IMG/VR virus record: IMGVR_UViG_3300025138_000016
Direction: 5' to 3' (one strand)
Source of the DNA: a virus
Length of the DNA stretch: 64,000 nt
The notes beneath the pieces are model-generated. The model saw only the letters and a list, made by a program, of their open reading frames with translations. It did no database searches and was not told where the DNA came from. Both the position numbers and the translations under genes were made by a program. This document shows positions 1,345 to 50,933 of the stretch, in pieces. Each line of letters opens with the position of its first letter. Within the stretch, counting starts at the first letter, position 1.

Positions 1345-2163
1345 TTAGTTGTCTTCTAATTCATCGATTAAGTCTTCCCATATGTCCTGATGGTTAACTA
1401 TTGTTGATAATGTAAACCTATTTGTACGAGCATGCGCAGCATGCCAGGAAGAATCTTCTGGATTATCCGACCATTTTACTATCGGATTATCCATACCTAT
1501 TTTCTCTCTATGTATTTTTTCTGGTGCTGTTGATATAAATTGTCCTGCTCTACAGCTCCAACCCTTTGCGTCAGGGTATTCTAAAATCTCACCATTATCA
1601 TAAGTAAAGAAGTCCCCTTCACCTATTTTGTTATAATGTAATAATATGTTATAACCTGGTGCATTTCCGTTATGATGCCAAGGTATAAATGTGCCAGGTG
1701 TATAAAAAGCACAAAGCGCCATTGCTCCACCACCTAGAAAGTCAGCTGATATATCATATACAGCTTGTTTAAGTTTTGTACCTAAGAAGAACTTAGGATT
1801 GTTATAGAATGTTTGTCCAGCTAAGAATGTTTCCGCATTAGGAAATCCGCTAGTAACATGTGAGCCATTTTCTTTGCGCATTAAATTCATCTGATACTGA
1901 AGGTATTCCATACCACATGGATCCATCTGTCCATCTTTAATATCATCTCTTGTATGACTTGGTAGTATATCAAAGTGAGGAGATACTTTATACGCTTCTT
2001 TACCTTCTTTCCTTCTCTGCTCAGGGTTACGATGATCAAAAGACAACTTATGTTCTCTATCTAAAAACTCTTTATCATCGAATACTTGATCAACAAGTCC
2101 AGATATATTATCTAATAGTTTAAGAAATTCTGGATTCTTAATCTTTACGTCACGCATTTTCAT
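1345..2163 (-). CDS. Putative 2OG-Fe(II) oxygenase/cupin-fold protein
   Basis: YTPGTFIPWHHN ... WHAAH ... RFTLS resembles a Hx(D/N)...H...R facial triad. Confidence 0.5.
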   Translation of the reverse strand: MKMRDVKIKNPEFLKLLDNISGLVDQVFDDKEFLDREHKLSFDHRNPEQRRKEGKEAYKVSPHFDILPSHTRDDIKDGQMDPCGMEYLQYQMNLMRKENGSHVTSGFPNAETFLAGQTFYNNPKFFLGTKLKQAVYDISADFLGGGAMALCAFYTPGTFIPWHHNGNAPGYNILLHYNKIGEGDFFTYDNGEILEYPDAKGWSCRAGQFISTAPEKIHREKIGMDNPIVKWSDNPEDSSWHAAHARTNRFTLSTIVNHQDIWEDLIDELEDN

Positions 2164-2169
2164 TATAAA

Positions 2170-3039
2170 TTATCCTTGCTCATGAGGAGCTCGTGCTTGT
2201 TCCTTTTCTTCTTGGGTTAACGTCTCCCATTCATCTTCAGCATCCTTATAATCTTCTGGTAAAGCTTTATGCATTAATTGACGATCTAATGGATGATGTT
2301 TTATTACTGGTGTACAGCCTGCCTCTTCTTCAGCATTTAGGTACATATTCCAATTCCATTTAGCCTGACCGAACTCAACAGCTGATACTTTTATACCTGG
2401 TGCGTCGAATTTCATTATATACCATAATGTAAATTGGTCCCAGCTTTTATTACCTATCCAATATTCAGGATGCTCGTCCCACCATTTTACTGAACAGTTT
2501 ATTTCTTTATATCGAGGCCACCAATTGTTAATAACATTATTAGCTGCTTCAGTATCATTCCATAAAAAGAATCCACCATGCCATATAAAGTTTCTTTCAG
2601 GGTCATCATCTCGTATACCAGCATTACCGTCTTCGGCATATATGGCTGTTGATGCTCCAACTCTTGTTGTTATCTTACAGAAAGCCATATCATGCTCATC
2701 ATCAAGTAGCTTCCATACATCCTGTATTTCAGGATCAACAATTTCCATATCAGCATCAAGATAGCATGTCTTTTTAAATGGTGAGAATGGTAGACCCCAT
2801 AGCTTTGTTCTTGTACTATGTGGCATACCTTGATCTTCAGTAATAATATCTACTACTTGATCGTACTCTCTAAACTCATCTGCCCATGTATTATGTGTTA
2901 CAATTAATACTTTACAGTCAGGATAGTACTCATCTAATGAGTCTAATAGAATAAGTGCGTTATTTTTATACCAGGGATGTAGCGTCGCTACTATAACAAA
3001 ACCTTTATCGTATGTCTTATTGACTGACATCGTAATCAC
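2170..3039 (-). CDS. GT-A fold glycosyltransferase
   Basis: SPFKKTCYLDAD (DxD), HGGFFLW and WDQFTLW motifs. Confidence 0.7.
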   Translation of the reverse strand: MITMSVNKTYDKGFVIVATLHPWYKNNALILLDSLDEYYPDCKVLIVTHNTWADEFREYDQVVDIITEDQGMPHSTRTKLWGLPFSPFKKTCYLDADMEIVDPEIQDVWKLLDDEHDMAFCKITTRVGASTAIYAEDGNAGIRDDDPERNFIWHGGFFLWNDTEAANNVINNWWPRYKEINCSVKWWDEHPEYWIGNKSWDQFTLWYIMKFDAPGIKVSAVEFGQAKWNWNMYLNAEEEAGCTPVIKHHPLDRQLMHKALPEDYKDAEDEWETLTQEEKEQARAPHEQG

Positions 3040-3433
3040 TCACAACTGCTGATGCATATACGTTTAATGCTTCAAACGTTTCTGCTTTACGAAGTCTTCG
3101 TTTTAGTTTTTTATTAGTAGAGGCTTTTATTTCTGGAAGTTCGTAAAGAGTTAATTTTGCTTGGAACAGTTGTTCTGCAAAAGCTCTCTTTTCGTTTTCC
3201 TGTTGTTCTTGCTCTTGAGTGTCGCGTTGGGTTCTGTACTCATCTATATCAGCTTGAGTTCTTGCATCGATCTCATCTAGAGTAGTTTCGCGTAAAGCAG
3301 CATCCCAATTTTCGGTATCTGCTCTGTCGATTATCATCTCACGACTTCCGGTGTCAGTTATTTCCCGACACCTTAGTCTTGTCTTTGTTTCTGGATCTTC
3401 CCACAAGATTTTTTTAAATCTTTTATCTGCCAT
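3017..3433 (-). CDS. Hypothetical protein, possibly a fibre assembly chaperone
   Basis: 138 aa, charged and helical, directly downstream of the repeat fibre genes. Confidence 0.55.
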   Translation of the reverse strand: MADKRFKKILWEDPETKTRLRCREITDTGSREMIIDRADTENWDAALRETTLDEIDARTQADIDEYRTQRDTQEQEQQENEKRAFAEQLFQAKLTLYELPEIKASTNKKLKRRLRKAETFEALNVYASAVVSDYDVSQ

Positions 3434-3468: not shown

Positions 3469-3498
3469 TATTATATATTACATTGTATATTTATGCAA
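3469..3498 (-). promoter_or_regulatory. Sigma70-type promoter with embedded late box
   Basis: Minus strand TTGCAT-N17-TATAAT; CATAAATA overlaps the -35 element. Confidence 0.5.
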
Positions 3499-6400
3499 CT
3501 CTCAGCCATAGTTTAACTGTGCTTTCTACACTAGTACTAGCCATAATAGTATCACCTGAGAACTGTCCTGTAAACTGATTACTAAATGTACTTGTATACT
3601 GAGGACCTGGAGTCGATCTAGAATAGGTTCCATCTGAATAACTTGGTCCACCAGTAGCTCTAGCATAGCCTATTGCAAAGTTTGGTCCAACTACTAGTCT
3701 AGCATACTGACCATCTGTGTAACCTGGTCCAGGAGTAGTTCTAGCGTAGCCTACTGCATAGTTAGGTCCTGGTCTACTTCTAGTATATTGACCGTCTGAG
3801 TAGCTAGGTCCTGGTGTAGTTCTAGCATAGTTAGTTGTATACTGTGGTCCTGGTGTTACTCTAGTATAGTTACCATCTGAGTAGCTAGGTCCAGGAGTAG
3901 TTCTAGCAAAGTTAACTACGTAGTTAGGTCCTACAATTAATCTTGTATATTGACCATCTGAGTAGTTAGGTCCAGGTGTTGATCTAGCATAACCTACTGC
4001 ATAGTTAGGACCTGGTCTGCTTCTTGTATACTGACCATCAGAGAATGTTACACCTGGTGTTGATCTTGTGTACTGTGCAGTAAATTGTCTTAAGAACGAT
4101 CTACCATAACCAGCAGAGTAAACTCTTACGAAGCCTCTAGCATATGCTCCTGTAAATTGTCTGTTGAATGCTCTTGAATAACCAGCTGAGAATTGTCTAG
4201 CAAATGCTCTTGAATACTGACCATAATAGGCTCTAGCAAACGCTCTACCATATCCTGCTGAATATACTCTAGTAAACTGTCTAGCATATTGACCAGCGTA
4301 TTGCCTAGCAAATGCTCTTCCATATCCTGCTGAGTAGACTCTAGTAAATTGTCTAGCATATGCACCGTTATAAACTCTTCCGAATGATCTTCCATATCCT
4401 GCTGAGTAGACTCTAGTAAATTGTCTAGCATATGCTGCTGAATATACTCTTCCGAACGATCTAGTATAACTAGCTGAATAAACTCTAGTAAATTGTCTAG
4501 CATATGCACCGTTATAAACTCTTCCGAATGATCTATTATAATTAGCTGAGTAAACTCTACCAAACGATCTTCCATAAGCGCCAGCATATACTCTGCCATA
4601 GTTAACAGCATAAGCTGGCCCAGGCCTGCTTCTACCATAGTTTACAGCATAAGCTGGTCCAGGTCTTGATCTAGCATAGTTAACAGTATAGTTAGGTCCT
4701 GGTCTACTTCTTGCGTAGTTGCCGGTATATACTCTACCATAGTTAACTGTATACTGTGCTGAATAAACTCTACCATAGTTTACTGTATAAGATCCGTAAT
4801 AGATTCTTCCAAAGGATCTTCCATAAGATACACCATAATTTGGTCCAGGTCTTGATCTACCGTAGTTACCAGCATATAGTCTACCGTAGTTAACTGCATA
4901 TGAACCTGAATAAGTTCTACCATAGTTACCGTAATAAACTCTACCATAGTTAACAGCATAGTTTGGTCCATTATATTGAATGCCAGGTAAAGGTCCCCTA
5001 GCATATTGAGGTCCAAAGAAGTTAGAGCCATCACCACCATTAATAGGTGAAGGTGATTGCCATGGATAGTTTCTTGAGAAAACTCCACCATAGTTAGTAC
5101 TTGGAAAAGAGTTATTAAACTGTCTTGTATAACTTACACCATAAGCTGGTCCAGGTCTTGCTCTGTTATAAGCCGGCCCGCCTCTTGATCTACCATATGA
5201 TACGCCGTAGTTTGGTCCGCCTCTTGATCTAGCATAGCTACCGTAATAAACTCTACCGTAGTTAACAACATAGTTTGAAGTATAATTTGGTCCAGGTCTT
5301 GATCTACCGTATGCTACACCATAAGCTGGTCCAGGTCTTGACCTACCATAACTTACACCATAAGCTGGTCCTGGTCTACTTCTTCCGTAGTTACCTGCAT
5401 ATACTCTTCCGAAAGCTCTTCCGTATGCTGCTGAATATACTCTACCGTAGTTAGTTGCATATGCACCATAGTATACTCTACCATAGTTAACAGCATAAGC
5501 TGGCCCAGGTCTGCTTCTTGCGTAGTTACCGTCTGAATAACCTGGTCCTGGTCTTGATCTAGCATAAGCTACATCATAGTTAGGACCTGGTCTACTTCTA
5601 GTATAGTTACCATCTGAGTAGTTAGGTCCAGGTGTTGATCTAGAATAGCCTACTGCATAGTTAGGTCCTGGTCTTGATCTGGCATAGTTACCATCACTAT
5701 AGTTAGGTCCTGGTCTGCTTCTTGCGTAGTTAACAGTATAGCTTGGTCCTGGTCTACTTCTAGTATAGTTACCATCTGAGTAGTTAGGTCCAGGTGTTGA
5801 TCTAGCATAGTTAACAGTATAGTTAGGTCCCGGTCTGCTTCTTGTATATTGGCCATCTGAGTAGTTAGGTCCAGGTGTTGATCTAGCATAGTTAACAGTA
5901 TAACTTGGACCTGGTCTAGTTCTTGAATACTGACCGTCTGAATAATTTGGTCCTGGTGTCGCTCTTGCATAACCTACTGTATAGTTAGGTCCTACAATTA
6001 GTCTAGAATAGTTACCATCTGAGTAATTAGGTCCAGGTGTTGATCTAGCGTAGTTAACAGTATAGTTAGGACCAGTAGTAGTTCTTGCATATTGACCATT
6101 AAATACTCTCTGGAATTGTCTTGCATATTGACCAGCATATTGTCTAGCAAACGCTCTAGTATATTGCGCTGAGAATACTCTAGTAAACTGTCTAGCATAT
6201 TGACCGTTAAATTGTCTCTGGAATGATCTTCCGTATCCTGCTGAGAATGATCTAGCGAACTGTCTAGCATATTCACCAGAAAATGATCTAGCAAATGATC
6301 TTCCATACCCTGCTGTAAATGATCTAGCAAACTGCCTAGCATATTGACCAGCAAATTGTCTAGCAAATGCTCTTGAATAGTCTGCTGTAAATGATCTATT

Positions 6401-7324
6401 AAATGCTCTGGCGTATTGACCAGTAAACTGTCTAGTAAATGATCTTGTATAGTCAGCTGTAAATGCTCTAGCAAATTGTCTAGAATACTGTGCTGAATAT
6501 ACTCTGGTAAACTGTCTTGAGAAGTTACCAGTAAATTGTTGTGAGTACTGCTGAGATTGAACATCAGATAAACTATTTTCTATAGCATTTGATACCTGTA
6601 ACCATGTTCCTGTTCCTGGGGCAGCAGTTTGTAGCTTATAAGTACCTACTCCAGTAGCTACTATTCTATTTCTTAATCTTTGTGTGAGAGTTTTAATCTC
6701 AGTATTATTCATCTCATTAACTGATGGTGTTGATGCATGTGCAGTTGCTTTCAAAGGTCTATATTCAGTTGGTGAAGTACCTGATGCAATCTTTCTCCAT
6801 AGTTTATATGTAGTTGCTGCTGATTCACCAGTAGCTACTGTATCAGTAAAGGTGCCTTTATCCTGCCATGTACCACCAGATGGAGGAGATACTCCTAAAA
6901 AGTATTGCCCTGTTGCGTAACTAGATGTATTTGCTATCTTTGCAATTAGGTGAGACATTACTGATGCATTTAAATCAGTGTCGTCTTGCTCTTCTATACC
7001 TTTGGATGCATCCCACTGAAGAGGTCTTACAAGACCGCTCTCTGAATGTGAAGCAATATTTTGATAAAGTGTAGTAGTAACAGAGTTAGTAGCTCCAGTA
7101 GCTGGATGTGTTCCTACTGTTTCTGTTCTTCTCGTATCAACAAAAGTACCCACTGATGTACCTGTTGAAAAGCTTATATCACCTGTGCCTGTGCCTGTAG
7201 CGAAATCAGCCAGTATGATATCTGCCATGTAATCCATTTCGGCACTAGACATGCTCTGTAAGCCAGAGAAATTGGTTGTATTCGGTGTACCCGAACTAGT
7301 TTTAATTCTTAAAGGATTTGCCAA
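3491..7324 (-). CDS. 1277-aa Arg/Tyr/Gly repeat protein, putative virion fibre with mirror-ordered modules
   Basis: TTG start with GGGAGA RBS and late box at 7382; about 260-aa base domain then xRx(F/Y)xxxY and xRSxPGPxY repeats; lies in the tail gene cluster. Confidence 0.85.
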   Translation of the reverse strand: MANPLRIKTSSGTPNTTNFSGLQSMSSAEMDYMADIILADFATGTGTGDISFSTGTSVGTFVDTRRTETVGTHPATGATNSVTTTLYQNIASHSESGLVRPLQWDASKGIEEQDDTDLNASVMSHLIAKIANTSSYATGQYFLGVSPPSGGTWQDKGTFTDTVATGESAATTYKLWRKIASGTSPTEYRPLKATAHASTPSVNEMNNTEIKTLTQRLRNRIVATGVGTYKLQTAAPGTGTWLQVSNAIENSLSDVQSQQYSQQFTGNFSRQFTRVYSAQYSRQFARAFTADYTRSFTRQFTGQYARAFNRSFTADYSRAFARQFAGQYARQFARSFTAGYGRSFARSFSGEYARQFARSFSAGYGRSFQRQFNGQYARQFTRVFSAQYTRAFARQYAGQYARQFQRVFNGQYARTTTGPNYTVNYARSTPGPNYSDGNYSRLIVGPNYTVGYARATPGPNYSDGQYSRTRPGPSYTVNYARSTPGPNYSDGQYTRSRPGPNYTVNYARSTPGPNYSDGNYTRSRPGPSYTVNYARSRPGPNYSDGNYARSRPGPNYAVGYSRSTPGPNYSDGNYTRSRPGPNYDVAYARSRPGPGYSDGNYARSRPGPAYAVNYGRVYYGAYATNYGRVYSAAYGRAFGRVYAGNYGRSRPGPAYGVSYGRSRPGPAYGVAYGRSRPGPNYTSNYVVNYGRVYYGSYARSRGGPNYGVSYGRSRGGPAYNRARPGPAYGVSYTRQFNNSFPSTNYGGVFSRNYPWQSPSPINGGDGSNFFGPQYARGPLPGIQYNGPNYAVNYGRVYYGNYGRTYSGSYAVNYGRLYAGNYGRSRPGPNYGVSYGRSFGRIYYGSYTVNYGRVYSAQYTVNYGRVYTGNYARSRPGPNYTVNYARSRPGPAYAVNYGRSRPGPAYAVNYGRVYAGAYGRSFGRVYSANYNRSFGRVYNGAYARQFTRVYSASYTRSFGRVYSAAYARQFTRVYSAGYGRSFGRVYNGAYARQFTRVYSAGYGRAFARQYAGQYARQFTRVYSAGYGRAFARAYYGQYSRAFARQFSAGYSRAFNRQFTGAYARGFVRVYSAGYGRSFLRQFTAQYTRSTPGVTFSDGQYTRSRPGPNYAVGYARSTPGPNYSDGQYTRLIVGPNYVVNFARTTPGPSYSDGNYTRVTPGPQYTTNYARTTPGPSYSDGQYTRSRPGPNYAVGYARTTPGPGYTDGQYARLVVGPNFAIGYARATGGPSYSDGTYSRSTPGPQYTSTFSNQFTGQFSGDTIMASTSVESTVKLWLRVA
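3560..6550 (-). repeat. Coding tandem repeats of 8-aa (A), 9-aa (B) and 4/5-aa linker modules
   Basis: Many near-identical copies such as TAGTTAGGTCCAGGTGTTGATCTAGCATAG and ACTCTAGTAAATTGTCTAGCATA; boundaries approximate. Confidence 0.9.
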
Positions 7325-7384: not shown

Positions 7385-9820
7385 TTATGCAATTCTTAAC
7401 CACAAGGTCTTAGTATTTTCAGTATAATTTGAAGAAACTGTGAGGCCTGAATACTGTTTATTACGAGAACCAGCAAATTGATTGCTATAAGATGAAGCAA
7501 ACTGTGAGCCAGGTGTTGATCTTGTATATTGTCCAGTAAATTGTCCACGAATAAAGTTACCTGTATACTGAGGACCAGGTCTTGATCTAGCAAAGTTTAC
7601 AGTATACTGTACTGACCTTGCATACGTAACACTATAAGCACCAACAAATTGTCTAGCAAATTGACGCTGATAATCCCCTGAGAAAGATCTAGCATAATCA
7701 GCTGTATATACTCTTGTGTATTGAGTGAGGTATGTTGGTCCATTATAGTTAGGACCTACTGTGCTTCTAGTATATTGAGCTCTTGCATATAGACCAGCAT
7801 ACTGAGGTCCAGCAAATTGTCTACCATAAGCACCATAACTTCTAGAGCCTGCGAATGTTCTAGTATAAAATATTCGCGAATATGCCGGAGCATTTCTTGT
7901 TCTTGCATACTGTGCTGTATAGTTTCTTAAATAACTAACTGAATATGCAGGACCATCATATTGTGGACCAGCTACATCTCGAGTAAAGGTACTTATATAC
8001 TGAGGTCCTGCTCTTGATCTTGCATATTGAGGACCATCATATTGTGGTCCTGGAGTTGATCTAGCATAAGCAGGACCATTAAAAGATAGAGAAGGCACAG
8101 ATCTTGTATACTGTGGACCACCTGTAGCTCTAGAAAAGCTTCTAGAGAAGAATCTTGTATATTGTCCTCTTACAAAGTTTACTGGAATAGGCCCACGGTT
8201 ATATGAGCCTCTAAAATATGCTCTTCCATCACCACCATTTGCTTCGCTTTCTGGAACGTTATAATAGTAAACTGTTCTATAAAAGACTTGAGAAAAATCG
8301 AATCCTGGAGCTGTACCTGAATAAAGACCTGTGAACTGATTACCTGTTGAGTAATTTTGATCATATTGCCCTATGTAAGTTCTACCATACTGGCCAGCAT
8401 AAAATCTTTGATAAGCCGCTCTTGTATAGTTTGCTGAGTATACTCTTGTATATTGTCTTTGATATTGCGCTGAATAATTTCTAGCATATTGAACTGAATA
8501 GTTATTAGTATATCGTCTAAGAAATGTCCTAGTATAATTAACAGTATAGTTTGGTCCGTCTGTTGATCTTGCATACTGACCGTAATAAACTAAAAGATAT
8601 GCGACAGCATATGTAATGCCTCTTGAATATGCGCCTGTGAAAGATACTGCATAGTTATCTCCCCTTGCATACTGTCTTTGAAATTGCGAGGAATATGTAC
8701 GAGCATATTGACCTGCATATTGTCTAGTAAATGCTCTTTGAAATTGAGCACTAGCATATTGAGGTCCAGGAGTAGATCTTGCGTATGAGAGGCCTGCAAC
8801 TACTCTTGTATATTGTGGACCATCATAGTTAGTACCAGCTACTCCTCTAGCAAAGTTAGATATATAACCTCTTGCAAAGCTACGTCCATAGCTACCAGCA
8901 TATACTCTTTGGAATTGATCTGCATATTGTCTAGCAAATTGTCCTCTAGAATATTGATCACTAAATATTCTTTGGAATTGTCTAGCAAAGGTATTAGCAT
9001 ATTGTGCTGTATAGTTACCAGTATATTGAGTATTTTCAATATTAGGATTTCTGTCTGTAGCAGCTCCTCTTGCAACCCATGTACCTACACCAGGAATAGA
9101 AGTTTGAAATTTATATGTGCCGACGCCTGTTGCTACTATTCTATTTCTTAATCTAGCTACTAATGTCTGTATTTCTGTATCAGACATTTCTTGTAAGTTG
9201 GTAGTAGATTGTTTAAGTAGTTTAACTTGAGTAGGACTACTAGTATGAGATGTTTTTCTCCATAGCTTATAAGTAACTTTTTGATCTTCATCATTTGCGT
9301 TGTTAGTAACTTCATCAAAGAATTGATCTTGAGCTACCCAAGTACCACCAATGCTAGGTGCATTAACACTAACGTAATAAGATCCTGCAGCTGCATATGT
9401 TGAATTAGCTTTAGCTATATCATCTAAGCAAAGTTGCATTATAGTAGTGTTTAATTGAGTAGATGTTTGTTGTGCAACATGACCAGGATTAGATGTACCA
9501 CCATGTGTAGCAGGTGTAATCATACTAGCTTCTGATAAAGAAGAAACGTTTTGTTTAAATATATAAGTAGTAGCACCAGCTGATCCTGAATAAGGATGCG
9601 ATAAGAGTTCACCAGTTGCAAAATTATCTACAAATGTACCAACACTAGTACCTGTTGAATTGATATTTAAATCTCCAACATGATCACCAGAGCCTGACTC
9701 TGTAGCGTACTTAGTGTTTATTAATTTAACGGAATAGTCAAGCTCAGCATTTGTTGTGACTTGGACTCCATTATTATAAACCCCATTTGCATGTGTTCGC
9801 AACTTAAGGGGATTGCTCAT
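7385..9820 (-). CDS. 811-aa paralog of the repeat fibre protein
   Basis: Shares RLRNRIVATGVGTYK, YKLWRK, central NGGDG and C-terminal LWLRxA with 3491-7324. Confidence 0.85.
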   Translation of the reverse strand: MSNPLKLRTHANGVYNNGVQVTTNAELDYSVKLINTKYATESGSGDHVGDLNINSTGTSVGTFVDNFATGELLSHPYSGSAGATTYIFKQNVSSLSEASMITPATHGGTSNPGHVAQQTSTQLNTTIMQLCLDDIAKANSTYAAAGSYYVSVNAPSIGGTWVAQDQFFDEVTNNANDEDQKVTYKLWRKTSHTSSPTQVKLLKQSTTNLQEMSDTEIQTLVARLRNRIVATGVGTYKFQTSIPGVGTWVARGAATDRNPNIENTQYTGNYTAQYANTFARQFQRIFSDQYSRGQFARQYADQFQRVYAGSYGRSFARGYISNFARGVAGTNYDGPQYTRVVAGLSYARSTPGPQYASAQFQRAFTRQYAGQYARTYSSQFQRQYARGDNYAVSFTGAYSRGITYAVAYLLVYYGQYARSTDGPNYTVNYTRTFLRRYTNNYSVQYARNYSAQYQRQYTRVYSANYTRAAYQRFYAGQYGRTYIGQYDQNYSTGNQFTGLYSGTAPGFDFSQVFYRTVYYYNVPESEANGGDGRAYFRGSYNRGPIPVNFVRGQYTRFFSRSFSRATGGPQYTRSVPSLSFNGPAYARSTPGPQYDGPQYARSRAGPQYISTFTRDVAGPQYDGPAYSVSYLRNYTAQYARTRNAPAYSRIFYTRTFAGSRSYGAYGRQFAGPQYAGLYARAQYTRSTVGPNYNGPTYLTQYTRVYTADYARSFSGDYQRQFARQFVGAYSVTYARSVQYTVNFARSRPGPQYTGNFIRGQFTGQYTRSTPGSQFASSYSNQFAGSRNKQYSGLTVSSNYTENTKTLWLRIA

Positions 9821-9830
9821 ATTTTATCCC

Positions 9831-12776
9831 CTAGGCCGGCCAGGCCACATCACCATTAGCGTAATATACTCTGAATGCGTTTCCGCCTTCATCTTTAATA
9901 TCACTATGTATTGATAAGTCTCCTACTACGTTAGCTGCTGCTTGTAAGTTTGTTGCGCTTGTTACTTTTAATGTACCTGTTTCTGTTTCACCAGTAACAC
10001 TTACGTTAGCACCAGCAGTAATATTATTATCTACTTGTGCTGTAGAAGATACATTTATAAAGCCAGTAATAGTTGTATTACCAGTACCTAAAGTTTTACC
10101 TACAGATACGTGCTGTGTAGTAGATATATTACCACTAAAAGTACCTGTGTTAGCAGTTAATTTAAATCTCTTAGTTGTATCACCAAGTACCGCACCTGAT
10201 GTATTAGATGCAGGTTTAACACCTGAAGACGTTGATATAATGCCAGTAGTATTAATTGTATTAGCATTCAATACCCATCTATTATTTACATCACCTAATG
10301 AAACTGTATTGCCATTAGGAATAAATCCTACTGTTGAGTTACCAACAGGTGCAAGTACAAATAAATGCTCTGTACCTGAGTTATCACCAATAGTAGTATT
10401 ACCATCTAATGTTGTCTCTGCTGATACAGATAGTGTAGTCATTGTGGCTACATTTAATGATAGCGCGTTATCACTTGCAAGTGATGTTGTACCTTGTACT
10501 GTGAAATTACCAGCAACAGTAACATTATTACTGAATGCTGTATTTGGTGCAACGTCCATACCAGTATCAGTGATGTATAATTCACCGCTTACTAGATTAG
10601 CTGTTGCGCCTGTATGAATTATAGGTGAGGTTAAAGTACCATGCGCTAATGAGCCTGTTATAGACGTATCGCCGCCAACATTTAATTTCTGACCTATTTG
10701 TACTGACTTAGCTATACCAACACCACCTGAAGTAGTTATTGATCCAGTTGTAGTACTAGTACTATTAGCAGTGTTATCTACATCTATTTTACCATCAACA
10801 CCTAAGTGACTTGATACGTTAGCTGTTCCAGTAATCTCTACATCGCCAGTAATTGTAGCACCAGATGCTGAGACTGTTAAACCGTCTGCTACTGTTAATG
10901 AATCACCTAATACGACGTTACCTGATACATTAGCAAGACCAGTTATATCTGCTCCACCATTAAGATCAGATAATCCTGAAACCTCTAGTCCGCTTGATAG
11001 AGTAGCTTTACCTGTAACACCAAGAGTACTACCAACAGTAGCTGATGTTCCTATACCAGCTCCGCCGACTGTAGTTAAACTAGCGGCTGCGATAGCACCG
11101 TCTGCAGCTATAGCCCCTGAATCAGATATTACAGCATTTACTGTACTATTACCAATAGTTATTTTTGAATGTGTTATTGCGACATTACCAGCTGTAATAT
11201 TATCTTGAGCTGTTATTGCGCCTTGTACGTTTAATGTACTATTTAAATCTGTTGCACCATTAGCCTGTAAAGTACCTGTTACATTTGCACTTGCTGCTTT
11301 TACATTACCAGCAAATACTGCAGCATTAGCTGTAGTTGTTCCGTCTATTGAAACTGTATTACTTAATGTAGTTGATCCAAGCACTGATAGAGTACCATCA
11401 GTATCAACGGCTGTTTTTGTTATGGCTGTATTAACAGTTGAATTACCAACTGTTATTTTTGAAGTTGAGAGGTTAACATTAGCGCCAACATTCATTTGCG
11501 TTGTTGCGTTTGCTATACCTGTTGTTATTAGACCTGATTTAGCTCTTAATAATCCACCAACGTTAGCTGCACCTGATAATAAAGTAGTTGTACCTACTGA
11601 TAGATTATCAGTTATAGTAACTGTATCACCAGCTGTTACATTACCTGTTAGTGTTGTTAAACCTGATGCATTTATATCAGCTGCTTTTAATCCCCATCTA
11701 GCATCATTTAATCCTAATGTCTGTGTATTAGCTTCTGGATTAATATTTGAAGATACTTCAGCTATAAAGTTAACTGAATCTGAGTTAGCATTACCTAAAT
11801 CAACATCTGCATTAAGAGTTGTTTTGCCTGCAATAGTAAGAGTACTACTACCACCTATTGCTCCTGTCACATCGGCTTTACCGCCTATTGACGTATTCCC
11901 TGTAACTGCTAGAGTATTTGATACACTCACAGTATTACTATTAAGGTTCCATCTAGCGTCTGTTAGACCAAGGGACAATGCGTTAGAAACGGGGTTTAAG
12001 CTTGAATCAGACTCTGAATTAAACGTTACTGTATCACTATTAGCTGAACCAAGTACTACGTTTGCATTAAACTGTGACTCATCTGAATCAACAGTTACTA
12101 AGTTACCAGCCAATGTTACAGAGGTTGATGTACCATCTCCATTTATATCAATAGCAGATAAAGTTGAATTAGACTTAAGCGTTATATCGTTAGCAGTAAG
12201 AGTAGTATTATCATAATCAGCTGTTAATGTTGTACCATCCATATCAACTGTTGTAGAGTTAATATCTAATGTTGTACCAGTAACATGAACTGCTGTTGAA
12301 TTTATTGAAGTATTAGTTGATGATGAATTAATATGTACATTAGAACTAACTTGTAGCAAAGTACCATTAGCAAATACGTTTGCTGTTTCTAGATCAACGA
12401 ATGATCCTTTAATGGTAACAGAATTAACAGTAGCATTAGAGCTAACATTAACAGTACCGTTTGATAGATTACTGTTTGATGTAACGTAGAGAGTGTTTGA
12501 TACTTGTACATTACCACCTCTTACATCATTAAATACAGCAATTGTATTAGATTGTAATATACCGCCTGTGCTATTAACCCAAGCTTCAGTATCTTGATTG
12601 TAAACGTTTGATGTTATTACAACGTTACCAGATGTAGAACCACCAACAGTATTTTGCTGAGCAGTAACAACTGTCTCAGATAAATCAAATAGTATCTGAT
12701 TGGTTTTGTCTACCCAAGCACCAAAGGTGTCTGTTTGCGTTGCAATATTAGCGGATTTATATTTTCTTTCAGCCAT
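9831..12776 (-). CDS. Long tail fibre-like protein
   Basis: TDTFGAWVDKTNQI N-terminus; long Ser/Thr/Asn/Gly/Val beta-rich repeats; repeated LGxxDARW motifs. Confidence 0.75.
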   Translation of the reverse strand: MAERKYKSANIATQTDTFGAWVDKTNQILFDLSETVVTAQQNTVGGSTSGNVVITSNVYNQDTEAWVNSTGGILQSNTIAVFNDVRGGNVQVSNTLYVTSNSNLSNGTVNVSSNATVNSVTIKGSFVDLETANVFANGTLLQVSSNVHINSSSTNTSINSTAVHVTGTTLDINSTTVDMDGTTLTADYDNTTLTANDITLKSNSTLSAIDINGDGTSTSVTLAGNLVTVDSDESQFNANVVLGSANSDTVTFNSESDSSLNPVSNALSLGLTDARWNLNSNTVSVSNTLAVTGNTSIGGKADVTGAIGGSSTLTIAGKTTLNADVDLGNANSDSVNFIAEVSSNINPEANTQTLGLNDARWGLKAADINASGLTTLTGNVTAGDTVTITDNLSVGTTTLLSGAANVGGLLRAKSGLITTGIANATTQMNVGANVNLSTSKITVGNSTVNTAITKTAVDTDGTLSVLGSTTLSNTVSIDGTTTANAAVFAGNVKAASANVTGTLQANGATDLNSTLNVQGAITAQDNITAGNVAITHSKITIGNSTVNAVISDSGAIAADGAIAAASLTTVGGAGIGTSATVGSTLGVTGKATLSSGLEVSGLSDLNGGADITGLANVSGNVVLGDSLTVADGLTVSASGATITGDVEITGTANVSSHLGVDGKIDVDNTANSTSTTTGSITTSGGVGIAKSVQIGQKLNVGGDTSITGSLAHGTLTSPIIHTGATANLVSGELYITDTGMDVAPNTAFSNNVTVAGNFTVQGTTSLASDNALSLNVATMTTLSVSAETTLDGNTTIGDNSGTEHLFVLAPVGNSTVGFIPNGNTVSLGDVNNRWVLNANTINTTGIISTSSGVKPASNTSGAVLGDTTKRFKLTANTGTFSGNISTTQHVSVGKTLGTGNTTITGFINVSSTAQVDNNITAGANVSVTGETETGTLKVTSATNLQAAANVVGDLSIHSDIKDEGGNAFRVYYANGDVAWPA

Positions 12777-40573: not shown

Positions 40574-41200
40574 TTATAAGCAATTGACTGGATATCCATC
40601 GACATGGTAATTAGCACCACCTGGAGGAAATCTACATCTCGATGTTGTATTATAAAGATAATGGTTCCTTAAAACAACTGCAGTGAGGATGAAATTGATC
40701 ATTACTATTTGACCTTCTTCAAAGTTTTGAGCTATTAGTGGAGCTGTAATTCCTTTCTGTAATAAGAACTGTGCTGCGCTAGGATTTTTCGGTAATAATC
40801 GATTACCCTCTTTTATATTTGGATGATGGGTTGTATAGTAATATGAACCACCCATATCCATCGCATTAATAATCCAGTAGTATCTCATTTGAGCTTTAGT
40901 TGGCTCATTATGTATACGTATAAATCGTAACCTTTTCTGTTTTTCCTTTAACGAGAATTCTATCAACTTCTCTGAATGCTCCATCTGGACACTGTTTATA
41001 ACACTCTTCCGATAACAGCACGTCAACCCCATCATAATTTCTCGTTTGGCCTTCCAGTCTCGCTCCGAGATTGACGGCATCTCCAATGACGGAATAGTCA
41101 AATCTAAGTTCTGAACCCATATTTCCGACGATGCATGTACCCGTGGAAATACCAATACCAATGTTAATAGGAGGAAGTTTAAGAGGTTTAAGTTCTTCAT
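40574..41200 (-). CDS. Hypothetical exported/membrane protein; start uncertain, overlaps the cyclase
   Basis: Fills 40574-40907 uniquely; long form has a signal-peptide-like N-terminus; alternative start at 40984. Confidence 0.55.
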   Translation of the reverse strand: MKNLNLLNFLLLTLVLVFPRVHASSEIWVQNLDLTIPSLEMPSISERDWKAKREIMMGLTCCYRKSVINSVQMEHSEKLIEFSLKEKQKRLRFIRIHNEPTKAQMRYYWIINAMDMGGSYYYTTHHPNIKEGNRLLPKNPSAAQFLLQKGITAPLIAQNFEEGQIVMINFILTAVVLRNHYLYNTTSRCRFPPGGANYHVDGYPVNCL

Positions 41201-42725
41201 TTAATGCCTTGGTTGCTTCAACTATTTCAATTGAAGATTTAACTGCTAGTTCTGCGTGGTTATCACAGTCAAGAGGTGCATTCCAGAATGCCATTATACA
41301 GTCGCCCATGTATTTGTCTATTGTACCTTTATTATTTAGAATAATCTTAGTTTGCATATCAAGAAACTTATTAACTAACTCAACTAAACCTTCAGGGTCA
41401 TCATTATTTTTATAGTGCTCGCTGATTGGAGTAAAGCCACATATGTCCATAAACATAAAGGTCATCTCTTTTCTCTCACCACCTAACTTTAATAATGATG
41501 GATCTTTCTGTAGCATTTTAACCATGTCAGGAGAGAGATAAGTACCAAACTGTTTCTGTATTTGTTGTCTTAATTTAAACTGGGTATAGAATTGAGCGAA
41601 AGCTCCATGAGCAAAAACGAGAAGAAAAGTTAATACTGGTATGACTGGATCAACTAAAAGGTACTTTGTATTGAATGTATCAATCGCAAATATAATAGTA
41701 CCGGAGGTTAAAACAAGAAAAGAAGCACCAGAAATAAATATTGGAGCTACTCTTAACAACCCAAGTATGAGTAAGCCAATTAATAACATACCAAGTAATT
41801 CATAAACAATATATTCAGGTGGCCTTTTAATAGTAGTACCATCTATAATTGTTTTAATTAAGTTAGCCTGCACGTCATGAGGGTACATTCCACCTACAGA
41901 TGTAGATATAATGTTAGTTCCTTCGAAAGTAGGCCCTACTATCATGATACTACCTGGAGATATAGTCTCAGCCTGTATCTCCCCAAGGCTGATGCGTTCA
42001 AAGCTGTTCCAGTACGTATTATATACTGTTCCGTCGAAAGTCGTGTTAACAGGGTTAAACTTAGGGACACGTGCCCATAATATACCTGTTTCATCGGTTT
42101 TTAACTGGTATGATATATCTCCTACTGCTACTCTTACTACTTCAAGAGCAAAACTGGGATATATCTTTTTATTAGCAGATACTACGACAGGTAACCGTCT
42201 AGTCACACCATCAACATCAGGTGCTGAGCTTATTGAACCATAACCCATAGATGCATTTGATAGCTCTTCTATCGGTAATAGTATACCAGGATAGTCAAGT
42301 GTATATTCTTGTGCTGGTATTCTTCCTAGAGTCGCTGTACCGACATGCAGCTCTCTTTCAGTTTGTATTTGATTGGTTGGTGCTGTAGATAATATAGACG
42401 GATATTGCATCAACGTCTGAGATAGTATATCATCGGTATTAAATCTATCTTTCTCAGATAGTATTAATGTTAAACCAAGAAGATTACCTTGAGGTATACC
42501 TGAAAGAGCCTCTGCTAAATCTTCTCTTGGCCAAGGCCATTGACCGTATTTTTGTATTGACTTTTCATCTATATCAACTAATATAATTTGATCTGATATT
42601 ACTTGCTCATGTGAACGCTGTAAGTAGTCAAAGAAGTTTAATCTAGTAACTTCAGCTAAAAATGGATCCCATATTTTTATACCAATACATAATATTAATG
42701 TTATGACTGCATGCCATAGCTTCAT
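40908..42725 (-). CDS. CHASE2-domain class III adenylate cyclase
   Basis: LVDIDEKS...GQWPWPR and DVDGVTRR (CHASE2); TM block; FMDICGFT, IDKYMGDCIMAF, DYSVIGDAVNLGARLE. Confidence 0.93.
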   Translation of the reverse strand: MKLWHAVITLILCIGIKIWDPFLAEVTRLNFFDYLQRSHEQVISDQIILVDIDEKSIQKYGQWPWPREDLAEALSGIPQGNLLGLTLILSEKDRFNTDDILSQTLMQYPSILSTAPTNQIQTERELHVGTATLGRIPAQEYTLDYPGILLPIEELSNASMGYGSISSAPDVDGVTRRLPVVVSANKKIYPSFALEVVRVAVGDISYQLKTDETGILWARVPKFNPVNTTFDGTVYNTYWNSFERISLGEIQAETISPGSIMIVGPTFEGTNIISTSVGGMYPHDVQANLIKTIIDGTTIKRPPEYIVYELLGMLLIGLLILGLLRVAPIFISGASFLVLTSGTIIFAIDTFNTKYLLVDPVIPVLTFLLVFAHGAFAQFYTQFKLRQQIQKQFGTYLSPDMVKMLQKDPSLLKLGGERKEMTFMFMDICGFTPISEHYKNNDDPEGLVELVNKFLDMQTKIILNNKGTIDKYMGDCIMAFWNAPLDCDNHAELAVKSSIEIVEATKALNEELKPLKLPPINIGIGISTGTCIVGNMGSELRFDYSVIGDAVNLGARLEGQTRNYDGVDVLLSEECYKQCPDGAFREVDRILVKGKTEKVTIYTYT

Positions 42726-48655: not shown

Positions 48656-50128
48656 CTAGTAAAAAACTTTAACGTCGTACTTCTCTTCGAAGCGCCACGC
48701 ATCCTCTACTGTATTGACCATTGGTTCACCTCTAATATTAAGAGATGTATTCAATAGAACGGGACAGCCAGTTTCTCTATACCATATCTCTAGAATTTGT
48801 CTAAAGATAGATTGCTCATACTTGGCTATTGTTTGAACTCTGCATGTACCATCTTGATGAACGATAGCTGGTAATGTCTTTTGTGTTATCTTAGTACCAT
48901 TAACAACGTGTTGCATATATGGTGTTTTAATATCAGGATGGAAATACTTAGCAGCATGCTCTTCTAGAACAGCTGGAGCGAATGGTCTAAACTTCTGTCT
49001 CTTTTTAATCTCATTAACCTTGTCTTTCATATCTGGTCCTCTCGGATCAGCGATTAAAGATCTATTACCAAGAGCTCTAGGACCAAATTCTGCTCTTCCA
49101 AATGCTACTCCACATACTTTATGTTCAAGTAAATGTGCAACAATCTGCTCAGCTAGTTGTAGACTTGTTCTTGTTAATGATTGCTCAGTCCTATGACCAA
49201 GGAAAGCATTTGTCCATACAACTTTCTTACCATAAGCTAATGCAGCTGCTCCTAATGAGGCTCCTGCATCGCCTGGGTTAGGCATTATCCATAAGTTACC
49301 TTTACATTGTTGATGTAGTTTAGTATTAGCAACACAGTTAAGGGCTACACCACCTCCATAAACAACATTATCAGATATCTCTAATGCTCTATCAAATATA
49401 TCTTTTAATTTCTCTTCTAATATTAACTGAGCATTAAAAGCAATATCAACGTCTCTATATTCATTTAACATATGCTTTAATGATACGTCAATAGGTATAC
49501 CTTTATGTAAGTTATAGTTAAAAAGATCTTCTAGCTTATCTAATAATAATGGCTCTACTTTACCAAAAGCAGCCATACCCATGAATATGTATTCTTCGTC
49601 AAGAGGTTTTAATCCAACGAAATGAGTTAATGCAGTATACCAAAGTCCAATACTATTAGGGTATCTTTCATTATATACTTTCTTATAAACAGCTCTGCCG
49701 CTCTTGTCATAGCTGCATTTCCATATTGTTGTACAATCCCATTCACCAATACTATCTACTACAACAGCAGCTGCTTCTTGATATGGTGATGTTTGAAATG
49801 TACCAGCAGCATGTGACTTGTGATGATGAAACTTAACGTCTGGTTTCCATGCTAATTGTCTTTTACTTGCAACAGTCTTATATTGACCTGAGTATAATTG
49901 CCTTGACTTCTTAAGAGCTGGTTTCTCAAAGAAAGCTTTCTTTTTAATATTAGGAAACCTCTCTTCTATATACGTTTTGAACTCAGGTGAAATATGCTTC
50001 TCATGTTTATTACCAGAGTGTCTCTCTGAATGAGATGCGAATACTATACTACCAGTATTGCCATTAATTATAGTCGCTGCAGCATCGTGAAAGCCTTCTG
50101 ACCAACCTAGGATTAAATTATCACTCAT
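48656..50128 (-). CDS. Carbamoyltransferase (NodU/CmcH family)
   Basis: Start at 50128 (MSDNLILGWSEGFHDAAA); HHKSHAA, GGVALNC, EFGPRALGNRS, RPFAP, LLNTSLN. Confidence 0.93.
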   Translation of the reverse strand: MSDNLILGWSEGFHDAAATIINGNTGSIVFASHSERHSGNKHEKHISPEFKTYIEERFPNIKKKAFFEKPALKKSRQLYSGQYKTVASKRQLAWKPDVKFHHHKSHAAGTFQTSPYQEAAAVVVDSIGEWDCTTIWKCSYDKSGRAVYKKVYNERYPNSIGLWYTALTHFVGLKPLDEEYIFMGMAAFGKVEPLLLDKLEDLFNYNLHKGIPIDVSLKHMLNEYRDVDIAFNAQLILEEKLKDIFDRALEISDNVVYGGGVALNCVANTKLHQQCKGNLWIMPNPGDAGASLGAAALAYGKKVVWTNAFLGHRTEQSLTRTSLQLAEQIVAHLLEHKVCGVAFGRAEFGPRALGNRSLIADPRGPDMKDKVNEIKKRQKFRPFAPAVLEEHAAKYFHPDIKTPYMQHVVNGTKITQKTLPAIVHQDGTCRVQTIAKYEQSIFRQILEIWYRETGCPVLLNTSLNIRGEPMVNTVEDAWRFEEKYDVKVFY

Positions 50129-50933
50129 TATTAAAAATTTCCTCAAACAAATATTCAGCGTATTTTTTATGCGCTTCTGGGCCTGGGTGATCGCCAGGCA
50201 TCTTATCATATTTATACGACTCAGTAAACTCATTAAATGACAGATACTGAGGTCGCTCGTGTGCAGAAGCGTCTTTTGGATTAGGTTCCGTAAATCCTAT
50301 CTTCTGTTTATCATTGAAACCATTTCGCATATCTTTATACATTCTATTAATACGTTTTAACCTATCACCGTAATTCATTAACCTCTTCTGAGAAAATGTT
50401 TTTGCTATTGTAAAGTTAACTGCTTGATGAAATACACCACCATAAGCAGTTATACCAGCTAGTACACAAGTGTTATATACATCTTTCATAAAAAAGGTTG
50501 TATCAAGTATAGCTCCTTCATTAGAATATACTTCATTATAATGAGTAATCATCTCATGCTTTTTTAACCTGAAAGGATGCGCATCAAGACGTGCTGGTGA
50601 GAATTGTGTAAAAGGATTGTCTGTTCTAAATTCACCTTCACCGGACGCGACAGCTTCCGGATCATCTAAGTCATACTGTAAGTGATAATCTAAACTTAAT
50701 ACCTCTACTCTCTCAAAAGCTGACCATAATACTAAACAATGAGTAAAGTCATTTTCTTGAAGAAGCTTTTCTTTAGTAGCTCTCCAGATTGCTTTATTAC
50801 TATTACCGGGTCTGGCTGTATTAACAACTTCACAGTCAAGCAGCTTACCAAGATGAGTTGACCATCTATCTCTTGCCGGGTCTTCTAATTCATCGCCATA
50901 AGTAAACGAGCATCCACTAACCAGTAATTTCAT
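50121..50933 (-). CDS. SGNH-like hypothetical protein
   Basis: GCSFTYG, PGNSN, C-terminal DHPGPEAH. Confidence 0.7.
   Translation of the reverse strand: MKLLVSGCSFTYGDELEDPARDRWSTHLGKLLDCEVVNTARPGNSNKAIWRATKEKLLQENDFTHCLVLWSAFERVEVLSLDYHLQYDLDDPEAVASGEGEFRTDNPFTQFSPARLDAHPFRLKKHEMITHYNEVYSNEGAILDTTFFMKDVYNTCVLAGITAYGGVFHQAVNFTIAKTFSQKRLMNYGDRLKRINRMYKDMRNGFNDKQKIGFTEPNPKDASAHERPQYLSFNEFTESYKYDKMPGDHPGPEAHKKYAEYLFEEIFNNE

What the first reader, a model, noticed from the sequence alone, without database searches (positions are those of the whole stretch)
3491..7324. A protein stem-loop: about 1000 aa of repeats ordered as a module-level reverse complement
Counted by hand from the translation. 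Two modules occur: A = xRx(F/Y)xxxY (8 aa) and B = xRSxPGPxY (9 aa). The order from the N-terminus is A12 B15 A3 B3 A1 B3 - tip - A3 B1 A3 B3 A15 B12, so folding at the tip puts every A opposite a B (37 pairs). Irregularities mirror as well: the double linker TSNY-VVNY faces GVSY-GRSF, and the missing linker in GRSRGGPAY-NRARPGPAY faces the missing linker in GRVYYGNY-GRTYSGSY. In the 15-unit block, acidic SDG(N/Q)Y linkers mostly face ARQF and TVNY faces GR(S/A)F. Inference: a very long antiparallel beta-hairpin fibre with a base-pairing-like code, whose two arms must expand in step. I do not recognise this architecture from known phage fibres.
Basis: partly seen in the sequence, partly recalled or inferred. 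Interest (0 to 1): 0.93.

Follow-up and report, generated by a model that had tools for sequence, protein, structure and literature searches.

The report
Self-pairing fold-back phage fibre protein
A 1277-residue tail protein of a marine T4-like phage has two 470-residue repeat arms that match each other unit for unit in reverse order under a strict amino-acid pairing rule, which relatives keep through matched insertions and swaps, so the chain almost certainly runs out and folds back into a very long paired ribbon of a design I could not find described.

Summary
Observation confirmed and extended. The ORF (3491-7324, minus strand, 1277 aa) parses as A12 B15 A3 B3 A1 B3 / tip / A3 B1 A3 B3 A15 B12. 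At tetrapeptide level the arms form a gap-free antiparallel ladder of 111 rungs with no exception: PGPxY faces an Arg step 37/37, xDGxY faces an Arg step 13/13, and Arg never faces Arg. None of 200,000 shuffles matched this. Seven complete orthologues (945-1505 aa) have different block patterns yet keep the gap-free rule (727 rungs in all, one exception), and 20 short relatives change both arms together in 4-residue steps. The array is inserted in the third hairpin of a three-repeat base domain (weakly MABP beta-prism-like). AlphaFold returns the C-terminal strand to that domain but does not fold the arms. Best reading: an out-and-back beta-ribbon virion fibre, about 125-150 nm, with a variable tip. 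Oligomeric state, residue-level register and function are not shown. One near-identical contig lacks 27 residues in one arm only (assembly collapse likely, not proven). No Pfam, PDB or paper match; the closest known structure is the 15-nm T4 gp37 needle. This scan has already noted the same architecture on many other phage genomes.

The parts
3491..7324 (-). Hairpin-fibre gene, 1277 aa, TTG start
   Evidence: orthologues at the same gene position
6557..7324 (-). Base domain (residues 1-256): three internal repeats, each strand-helix-strands-hairpin; weakly MABP beta-prism-like
   Evidence: HHalign repeat pairs prob. 98.6-99.6; AF2 pLDDT 92 on short relative P0049; VIA Z 7.2/7.1/6.2/5.1 to MABP domains; 389 relatives at 50% clustering
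5129..6544 (-). Outgoing arm (residues 261-732), 111 steps: A12 (269-412), B15 (413-610), A3, B3, A1, B3
4958..5128 (-). Tip (residues 733-789), Gly/Pro/aromatic-rich, NGGDG at 5027-5041; differs in length and sequence among orthologues
3560..4957 (-). Return arm (residues 790-1255), 111 steps: A3, B1, A3, B3, A15 (910-1085), B12 (1086-1243)
3491..3559 (-). C-terminal strand (LWxRxA motif) that returns to complete the base domain
   Evidence: present in 142 complete family members; predicted as a strand at pLDDT 83-92 in the query's own model
7385..9820 (-). Paralogue, 811 aa: same base domain and C-terminal strand, less regular mirror arms
   Evidence: fold-back score 44 vs shuffled 14+/-9, about 205/212 residues paired
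9831..12776 (-). Upstream tail-fibre-like protein, 981 aa; candidate attachment partner (inferred, not tested)
   Evidence: phrog_25747 tail fibre, E 1e-5; same position in close loci
3017..3433 (-). Conserved 138-aa protein directly downstream; candidate assembly chaperone (inferred)
   Evidence: follows the fibre gene in all 11 loci aligned; no family hit
2170..3039 (-). GT-A-like glycosyltransferase with an invariant DAD motif; co-conserved with the fibre gene
   Evidence: alignment; glycogenin E 0.03; Pfam GT2 in 6/10 members, best E 0.002; weak
1345..2163 (-). Cupin/2OG-oxygenase-like protein (invariant WHxNxN...H.A...R.T); co-conserved
   Evidence: alignment; phrog_81 2OG-Fe(II) oxygenase in 1/8 members, E 0.007; weak

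Best explanation
The protein is a long, thin appendage of the baseplate/fibre module of a marine T4-like phage. A compact three-repeat base domain anchors both chain ends. In repeats 1 and 2 the last two strands are joined by a short hairpin; in repeat 3 that hairpin is extended into a two-stranded antiparallel beta-ribbon. The ribbon runs out 111 four-residue steps, turns at a variable Gly/Pro/aromatic tip and returns. Register is fixed by a step code. Each rung carries at most one Arg, which faces a small residue (Gly/Ala), a Val step, or a one-residue bulge (PGPxY, xDGxY). Aromatics recur every step and probably stack with the Arg into a cation-pi ladder. Because the code is heterotypic and the block lengths are irregular, only one register is free of clashes over the whole length, so the arms must lengthen together and swaps must be compensated. 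At 444 paired positions the ribbon would be about 125-150 nm. It most likely carries the tip far from the virion to make first contact with a host surface in dilute seawater. SHOWN: the code, the matched indels, the compensatory swaps, the three-repeat domain and the gene context. PREDICTED: strand pairing at the base. INFERRED: a beta-ribbon along the full length, intramolecular pairing in a monomer whose pseudo-threefold base caps a trimeric fibre, the length, and the host-contact function.
For: Exception-free 111-rung ladder, 0/200,000 shuffles. Over eight complete proteins (727 rungs): PGP-step:Arg-step 241/241, xRSx-step:linker 241/241, acidic bulge:Arg-step 61/62, Arg-bearing bulge TRGQF/ERGQY:non-Arg step 16/16 (a swap of Arg to the other strand), Arg:Arg 0. 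An N-arm fits its own C-arm at 0.99-1.00 but those of other orthologues at 0.44-0.98. A pair matrix learnt without the query folds it back over 474/469 residues, score 214 vs 64+/-18. Twenty short relatives with N-arms of 11-139 aa have C-arm = N-arm + 13 exactly in 12 and within 1 in 15. Variants of facing modules co-vary at protein level (Spearman 0.31-0.61, 10/10 tests p<0.04) but hardly at synonymous sites (1/10). The distant 3347-aa protein of phage C48C1 follows the same logic with other letters over about 250 rungs, one Arg:Arg. AF2 of P0049 (pLDDT 92) gives strands 235-252 and 286-311 on either side of the insert; the query's own model gives strands 248-270 and 1247-1275. The gene lies among baseplate and fibre genes. 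Tips are unrelated among orthologues.
Against: AF2 does not fold the arms (pLDDT 26-44) and builds a low-confidence local solenoid at residues ~305-395 instead. The residue-level register is uncertain by two: two registers tie in conditional mutual information, and the two models' strand ends disagree by two. L021, a near-identical contig, has 13 rather than 15 B modules against an unchanged A15 block. L008, which is identical to L021 over its first 1493 nt, retains the full block after a scaffold gap, so an assembly collapse is likely but not proven. No virion proteomics or microscopy exists for these phages in what I could search.
Confidence: 0.68

Rival explanations
1. The same code is read in an oligomer. 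Three chains each run out and back and bundle into a six-stranded needle as in T4 gp37, or the outgoing arm of one chain pairs with the return arm of a neighbour. The aromatic/Arg face would then be a buried core rather than an exposed ladder.
For: Most phage fibres are trimers, and the gp37 tip is a six-stranded antiparallel needle (PMC9659904). A bare two-stranded ribbon of this length has no precedent that I know. Sequence complementarity cannot tell intra- from intermolecular pairing.
Against: The base domain already has internal threefold repetition and is predicted with high confidence as a single chain. About one Arg per rung would be hard to bury in a narrow barrel (inference). The arms contain no His for metal sites.
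Confidence: 0.22
2. The hairpin is real but is not a receptor-reaching fibre. It is a length ruler or tether in tail assembly, or a polycationic filament that binds DNA or membrane during ejection.
For: The arms carry net charge +105. [quoted passage not shown] Insert length varies freely from 11 to 3081 aa.
Against: Insert charge ranges from -10.6 to +10.3 per 100 residues across the family (31 acidic, 19 neutral, 34 basic), so there is no shared polyanion-binding role. Tips are variable. The C48C1 protein carries globular domains bulged out of the return arm, as adhesins do. Two paralogues of different length sit side by side, unlike a single ruler.
Confidence: 0.08
3. The mirror order is a by-product of DNA events (inverted duplication, repeat slippage or mis-assembly), and the protein is a locally folded solenoid or disordered.
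For: AF2 gives low confidence along the repeats and a local solenoid patch. Short-read assemblies break in the repeats.
Against: There is no DNA inverted repeat, and A and B codons are not reverse complements. The rule holds gap-free in orthologues with unrelated block orders and in another alphabet. The correlation is at protein, not synonymous, level. Mis-assembly would break the symmetry, not create it.
Confidence: 0.02

Closest known systems
Needle domain of the phage T4 long-tail-fibre tip, gp37 (six-stranded antiparallel needle, PMC9659904; about 150 x 25 A, PMC3004832)
   Same: A phage fibre whose chain runs out and back as antiparallel strands with a receptor-binding head at the turn; T4-like tail module.
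   Different: The needle is about a tenth of the length inferred here. It is a homotrimer at the C-terminus of a long fibre and is held by His-iron sites (own knowledge); here the arms have no His. It has no repeat code and no known matched expansion. No sequence or fold match was found.
MABP beta-prism domains: Plu-MACPF 2qp2, Mp2Ba1 8b6v, MVB12B 3tow, perforin-2/MPEG1 P2 6sb1
   Same: Best structural matches of the base domain (Z 7.2, rmsd 3.6, 114 aligned; Z 7.1; 6.2; 5.1). [quoted passage not shown]
   Different: Z is under 8, identity about 10%, and less than half of the domain aligns. Each repeat here adds a helix. The hairpin is up to 100 times longer and repetitive. There is no MACPF domain, and no phage MABP paper was found.
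Bacterial chemoreceptor signalling hairpins and other antiparallel coiled-coil stalks with symmetric indels (own knowledge; my paper search returned nothing)
   Same: Out-and-back arms that gain and lose length in matched steps.
   Different: Those are alpha-helical heptad structures without a unit-by-unit heterotypic code.
Bovine ultralong CDR-H3 stalk-and-knob (own knowledge, not tested)
   Same: A two-stranded, Tyr-rich beta-ribbon inserted in a compact domain and carrying a variable knob.
   Different: The stalk is about a dozen residues per strand, unrelated in sequence and without block code.

Membership tests
T4 gp37-type needle fibre | Chain runs out and back in antiparallel strands with a head at the turn | tested here: met
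   Ladder and matched indels; base strands predicted; full length inferred
T4 gp37-type needle fibre | Homotrimer forming a six-stranded needle | not testable with these tools
T4 gp37-type needle fibre | His-x-His iron sites along the needle (own knowledge) | tested here: not met
   No His in 938 arm residues
T4 gp37-type needle fibre | Needle is the C-terminal part of a long collar-bearing fibre | tested here: not met
   The array is an insertion inside an N-terminal three-repeat domain that the C-terminal strand completes
T4 gp37-type needle fibre | Sequence or fold similarity to gp37/gp12 | tested here: inconclusive
   No hit in PDB sequences, Pfam, PHROGs, Foldseek or VIA; the arms themselves were not modelled with confidence
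MABP beta-prism domain | Three internal repeats with pseudo-threefold arrangement | tested here: met
   HHalign between repeats E 4e-16, 6e-16, 1e-24
MABP beta-prism domain | Structural superposition at family level | tested here: inconclusive
   Top five VIA hits are MABP-bearing chains but Z <= 7.2; Z 3.3-4.3 with the truncated query model; Foldseek no hit
MABP beta-prism domain | Binds acidic lipid membranes | not testable with these tools
   Needs a liposome assay
T4-like (Kyanoviridae-type) tail module protein | Encoded among baseplate wedge, hub and fibre genes | tested here: met
   DUF4815, gp8-like, gp5 hub, tail tube cap and fibre hits; only cultured relative is phage C48C1, Kyanoviridae
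T4-like (Kyanoviridae-type) tail module protein | Present in virions | not testable with these tools
   No proteomics available

The most novel reading that the evidence does not exclude
A widespread family of phage fibres in which one polypeptide forms a single-chain antiparallel beta-ribbon from under 10 nm to several hundred nm long. Its register is written in a short-alphabet, heterotypic peptide pairing code that evolves like an RNA stem, with matched indels, compensatory swaps, wobble pairs and looped-out domains. It sits on a pseudo-threefold base and may be modified by a dedicated glycosyltransferase and oxygenase.
Probability: 0.5. Interest if true: 0.93.

Novelty: categorically new. 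Interest (0 to 1): 0.87.

Why it matters
It would be a natural protein in which long-range beta-strand register can be read from sequence by a simple rule, over hundreds of residues and without gaps. That makes an old open question, what fixes strand register in beta-sheets, directly testable by swapping one letter and rescuing it with the partner swap. It also offers a modular, length-programmable nanofibre. For phage biology it points to an undescribed class of host-capture appendage in common marine T4-like phages. The family has hundreds of members, which gene callers and databases often miss or leave unnamed.

Tried and rejected
Pfam, PHROGs, NCBIfam and PDB sequence searches gave nothing for the protein beyond one PHROG at E 4e-4 with no passing stretch. 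Foldseek against PDB and BFVD gave no match at E<=0.001. The AF2 model of residues 78-1277 is uninformative along the arms; its solenoid patch and the SufB/UreD/LRR matches to it were rejected as low-confidence artefacts. A DNA inverted repeat as cause of the mirror was rejected. A shared DNA duplication history of facing modules was not detected at synonymous sites, though power is low. My first tip/anchor regex was too loose and was replaced; the C48C1 tip match is spurious and was left out of the 20. The joints reported by read laying are cross-matches to the paralogue, not length variants; contigs break in the repeats and no piece spans the gene. Six RNA runs hold parts of the gene, but contigs do not show transcription. 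Five paper searches on fibres, MABP in phage and palindromic repeat proteins found no description; the library lacks most subscription papers, so this is not proof of novelty. Same-strand shadow ORFs (4126-4638, 4780-5091, 5650-5970, 5998-6564) are taken as by-products of the repeat codons. No whole genome was held, and the host was not determined.
Full report
Observation. The ORF at 3491-7324 on the minus strand encodes 1277 residues from a TTG start. The true unit is smaller: a step of four residues, nearly always ending in Tyr or Phe. A B module is two steps (xRSx plus the five-residue PGPxY), and the acidic linker xDGxY is a five-residue step. Residues 261-732 and 790-1255 divide into such steps with nothing left over.

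The code. Laid antiparallel from the base with no gap, the arms form 111 rungs. PGPxY faces an Arg step 37 of 37 times, xRSx faces a Gly/Ala/Ser linker 37 of 37 times, and xDGxY faces an Arg step 13 of 13 times. The Val linkers face an Arg step or another linker, a wobble pair. 102 rungs carry exactly one position-2 Arg, nine carry none, and none carries two. No module shuffle of 200,000 was exception-free. The native order is the best of all circular shifts and block permutations, and a parallel register fails. The centre of the ladder falls at about residue 761, beside NGGDG. No DNA inverted repeat explains this.

Relatives test the code. The N-terminal 250 residues find 389 cluster representatives and one cultured phage, C48C1 (Kyanoviridae). 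Of the proteins fetched, 142 are complete: same domain, same C-terminal LWxRxA-type strand, and between them an insert of 11 to 3081 residues. In 20 short members with a recognisable tip motif the outgoing arm ranges from 11 to 139 residues, mostly in steps of four. The return arm is longer by exactly 13 in 12 of them, by 12-14 in 15, and by 9-17 in 19.

Orthologues at the same gene position came from marine metagenomes. Eight complete proteins of 945-1505 residues, the query included and two of them close strains, have different block patterns (for example 12/15/3/3/1/3, 15/20/3/1/1/1/1/1, 5/20/3/1/1/1/1/1, 1/4/2/3/2/4/4/4). All give gap-free ladders as far as they parse. Of 727 rungs, PGP:Arg is 241/241, xRSx:linker 241/241, acidic bulge:Arg 61/62, and Arg:Arg 0. 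These orthologues add a letter, an Arg-bearing bulge (TRGQF or ERGQY), which faces a non-Arg step 16 of 16 times: the Arg has changed strands, as in a G-C to C-G swap. An arm fits its own partner at 0.99-1.00 and foreign partners at 0.44-0.98. A residue-pair matrix learnt without the query folds it back over 474/469 residues (214 vs 64+/-18) and folds the neighbouring paralogue more weakly (44 vs 14+/-9). Spelling variants of facing modules co-vary in all ten tests at protein level but in only one at synonymous sites, so the match is kept by selection on the protein. The 3347-residue C48C1 protein uses other letters but the same logic over about 250 rungs, with globular segments looped out of the return arm.

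One exception. L021 is a near-identical contig with 81 nt missing from the B15 block and no matching loss in A15. L008 is identical to it over the first 1493 nt, has a scaffold gap at this block and keeps the full block after the gap. Short-read contigs break throughout these repeats. An assembly collapse is therefore the likelier cause, but a real unmatched intermediate is not excluded, and such intermediates must exist at least briefly.

Anatomy of the base. The domain consists of three homologous repeats (HHalign E 4e-16 to 1e-24). In repeats 1 and 2 a short hairpin leads back to a TxxLWxK-type strand. In repeat 3 the whole array stands in that place and the protein's last strand completes the repeat. 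AlphaFold2 of a short relative (P0049, pLDDT 92) gives long strands 235-252 and 286-311 on either side of the insert, with an isolated bridge at 255/283. That register puts Arg opposite Gly/Ala and aromatic opposite aromatic. The query's own model (residues 78-1277) likewise returns the C-terminal strand to the domain at pLDDT 83-92 but leaves the arms unfolded. The residue-level register is uncertain by two; the rung-level register is not. The domain's best structural matches are all MABP beta-prisms, at middling Z (7.2 at most). [quoted passage not shown] I treat this as a resemblance, not membership.

Context. The gene lies in a T4-like baseplate and fibre module, behind a 981-residue fibre-like gene and an 811-residue paralogue. 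Three genes follow it in nearly every locus examined, including C48C1 and a short-hairpin locus: a small helical protein, a GT-A-like protein and a cupin/2OG-oxygenase-like protein. The enzyme assignments are weak, and a role in modifying the fibre is only a guess from co-conservation. The sequence occurs in marine metagenomes of 14 studies. The host is unknown.

Mechanism. The best reading is an out-and-back beta-ribbon anchored at both ends by the base domain, zipped by an Arg/aromatic ladder with regular one-residue bulges. Irregular block lengths leave one clash-free register. With 444 paired positions at about 3.3 A (textbook value), the ribbon would be about 147 nm, less if supercoiled. 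The variable tip, the charge range across the family (-10.6 to +10.3 per 100 residues) and the looped-out domains of C48C1 fit a host-contact fibre better than a DNA-binding filament or ruler. I put about 0.92 on the long antiparallel pairing, about 0.85 on a virion fibre, and roughly even-to-favourable odds on a monomer. The trimeric needle is the main rival and could not be tested.

Comparison and novelty. The nearest known structure is the T4 gp37 needle (PMC9659904; 150 x 25 A, PMC3004832). It works alike in running out and back, but this protein fails membership on iron sites and on position within the chain, and is about ten times longer. I found no database family or paper describing a gap-free self-complementary repeat code, within the limits of the library searched. 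Earlier notes of this scan report the same architecture on this stretch and on many other phage genomes. I read them after forming my own view, and I count them as leads, not support.

Noticed in passing
window 7385-9820 (-): 811-aa paralogue with the same base domain, an NGGDG turn and less regular mirror arms; the tandem pair is conserved in close relatives.
   Followed up: partly
window 1345-3433 (-): Triad of a small helical protein, a GT-A-like DxD protein and a cupin/2OG-oxygenase-like protein follows the fibre gene in nearly all loci, even distant ones; it may chaperone or modify the fibre.
   Followed up: partly
L001:14983-25026 (phage C48C1, WJE88074.1): 3347-aa member in a cultured phage: one long hairpin with globular segments looped out of the return arm near residues 1812-2128, 2405-2581, 2642-2819, 2884-3061 and 3134-3252; a stretch of about 70 aa in the first segment is duplicated.
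   Followed up: partly
L021:6001-9621: Near-identical strain or assembly lacking one 81-nt unit in the outgoing arm only; the one unmatched case seen.
   Followed up: partly
L040:3010-5994, L039:1438-4413, L043:214-5964, L035:1453-5991: In more distant loci the gene upstream of the family member is another 950-1900-aa tetrapeptide-repeat protein that starts directly with repeats and lacks the LWxRxA end; possibly a second, differently anchored hairpin family.
   Followed up: no
L043:6001-11097, L042, L045, L035: Members of 1700 to more than 2200 aa use a Lys/Trp/Asp alphabet (YTKIW, SKDY) instead of Arg/Pro-Gly-Pro; their pairing rule was not worked out.
   Followed up: no
window 40908-42725 (-) and 48656-50233 (-): Adenylate/guanylate cyclase-like gene closest to Pelagibacter phage HTVC008M (44%) and Methylophilales phage Melnitz (36%), and a NolO-like carbamoyltransferase; weak hints at the phage's relatives, not at its host.
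   Followed up: partly
window 3491-7324; L008, L017: Gene callers often miss this gene (TTG/GTG start, gaps) or call shadow ORFs in other frames instead, so the long members are under-represented in protein databases.
   Followed up: partly
window 4565-5593 (run X15): An RNA-library contig spans the tip region with 53 differences, that is, a divergent strain; its sequence could not be examined.
   Followed up: no
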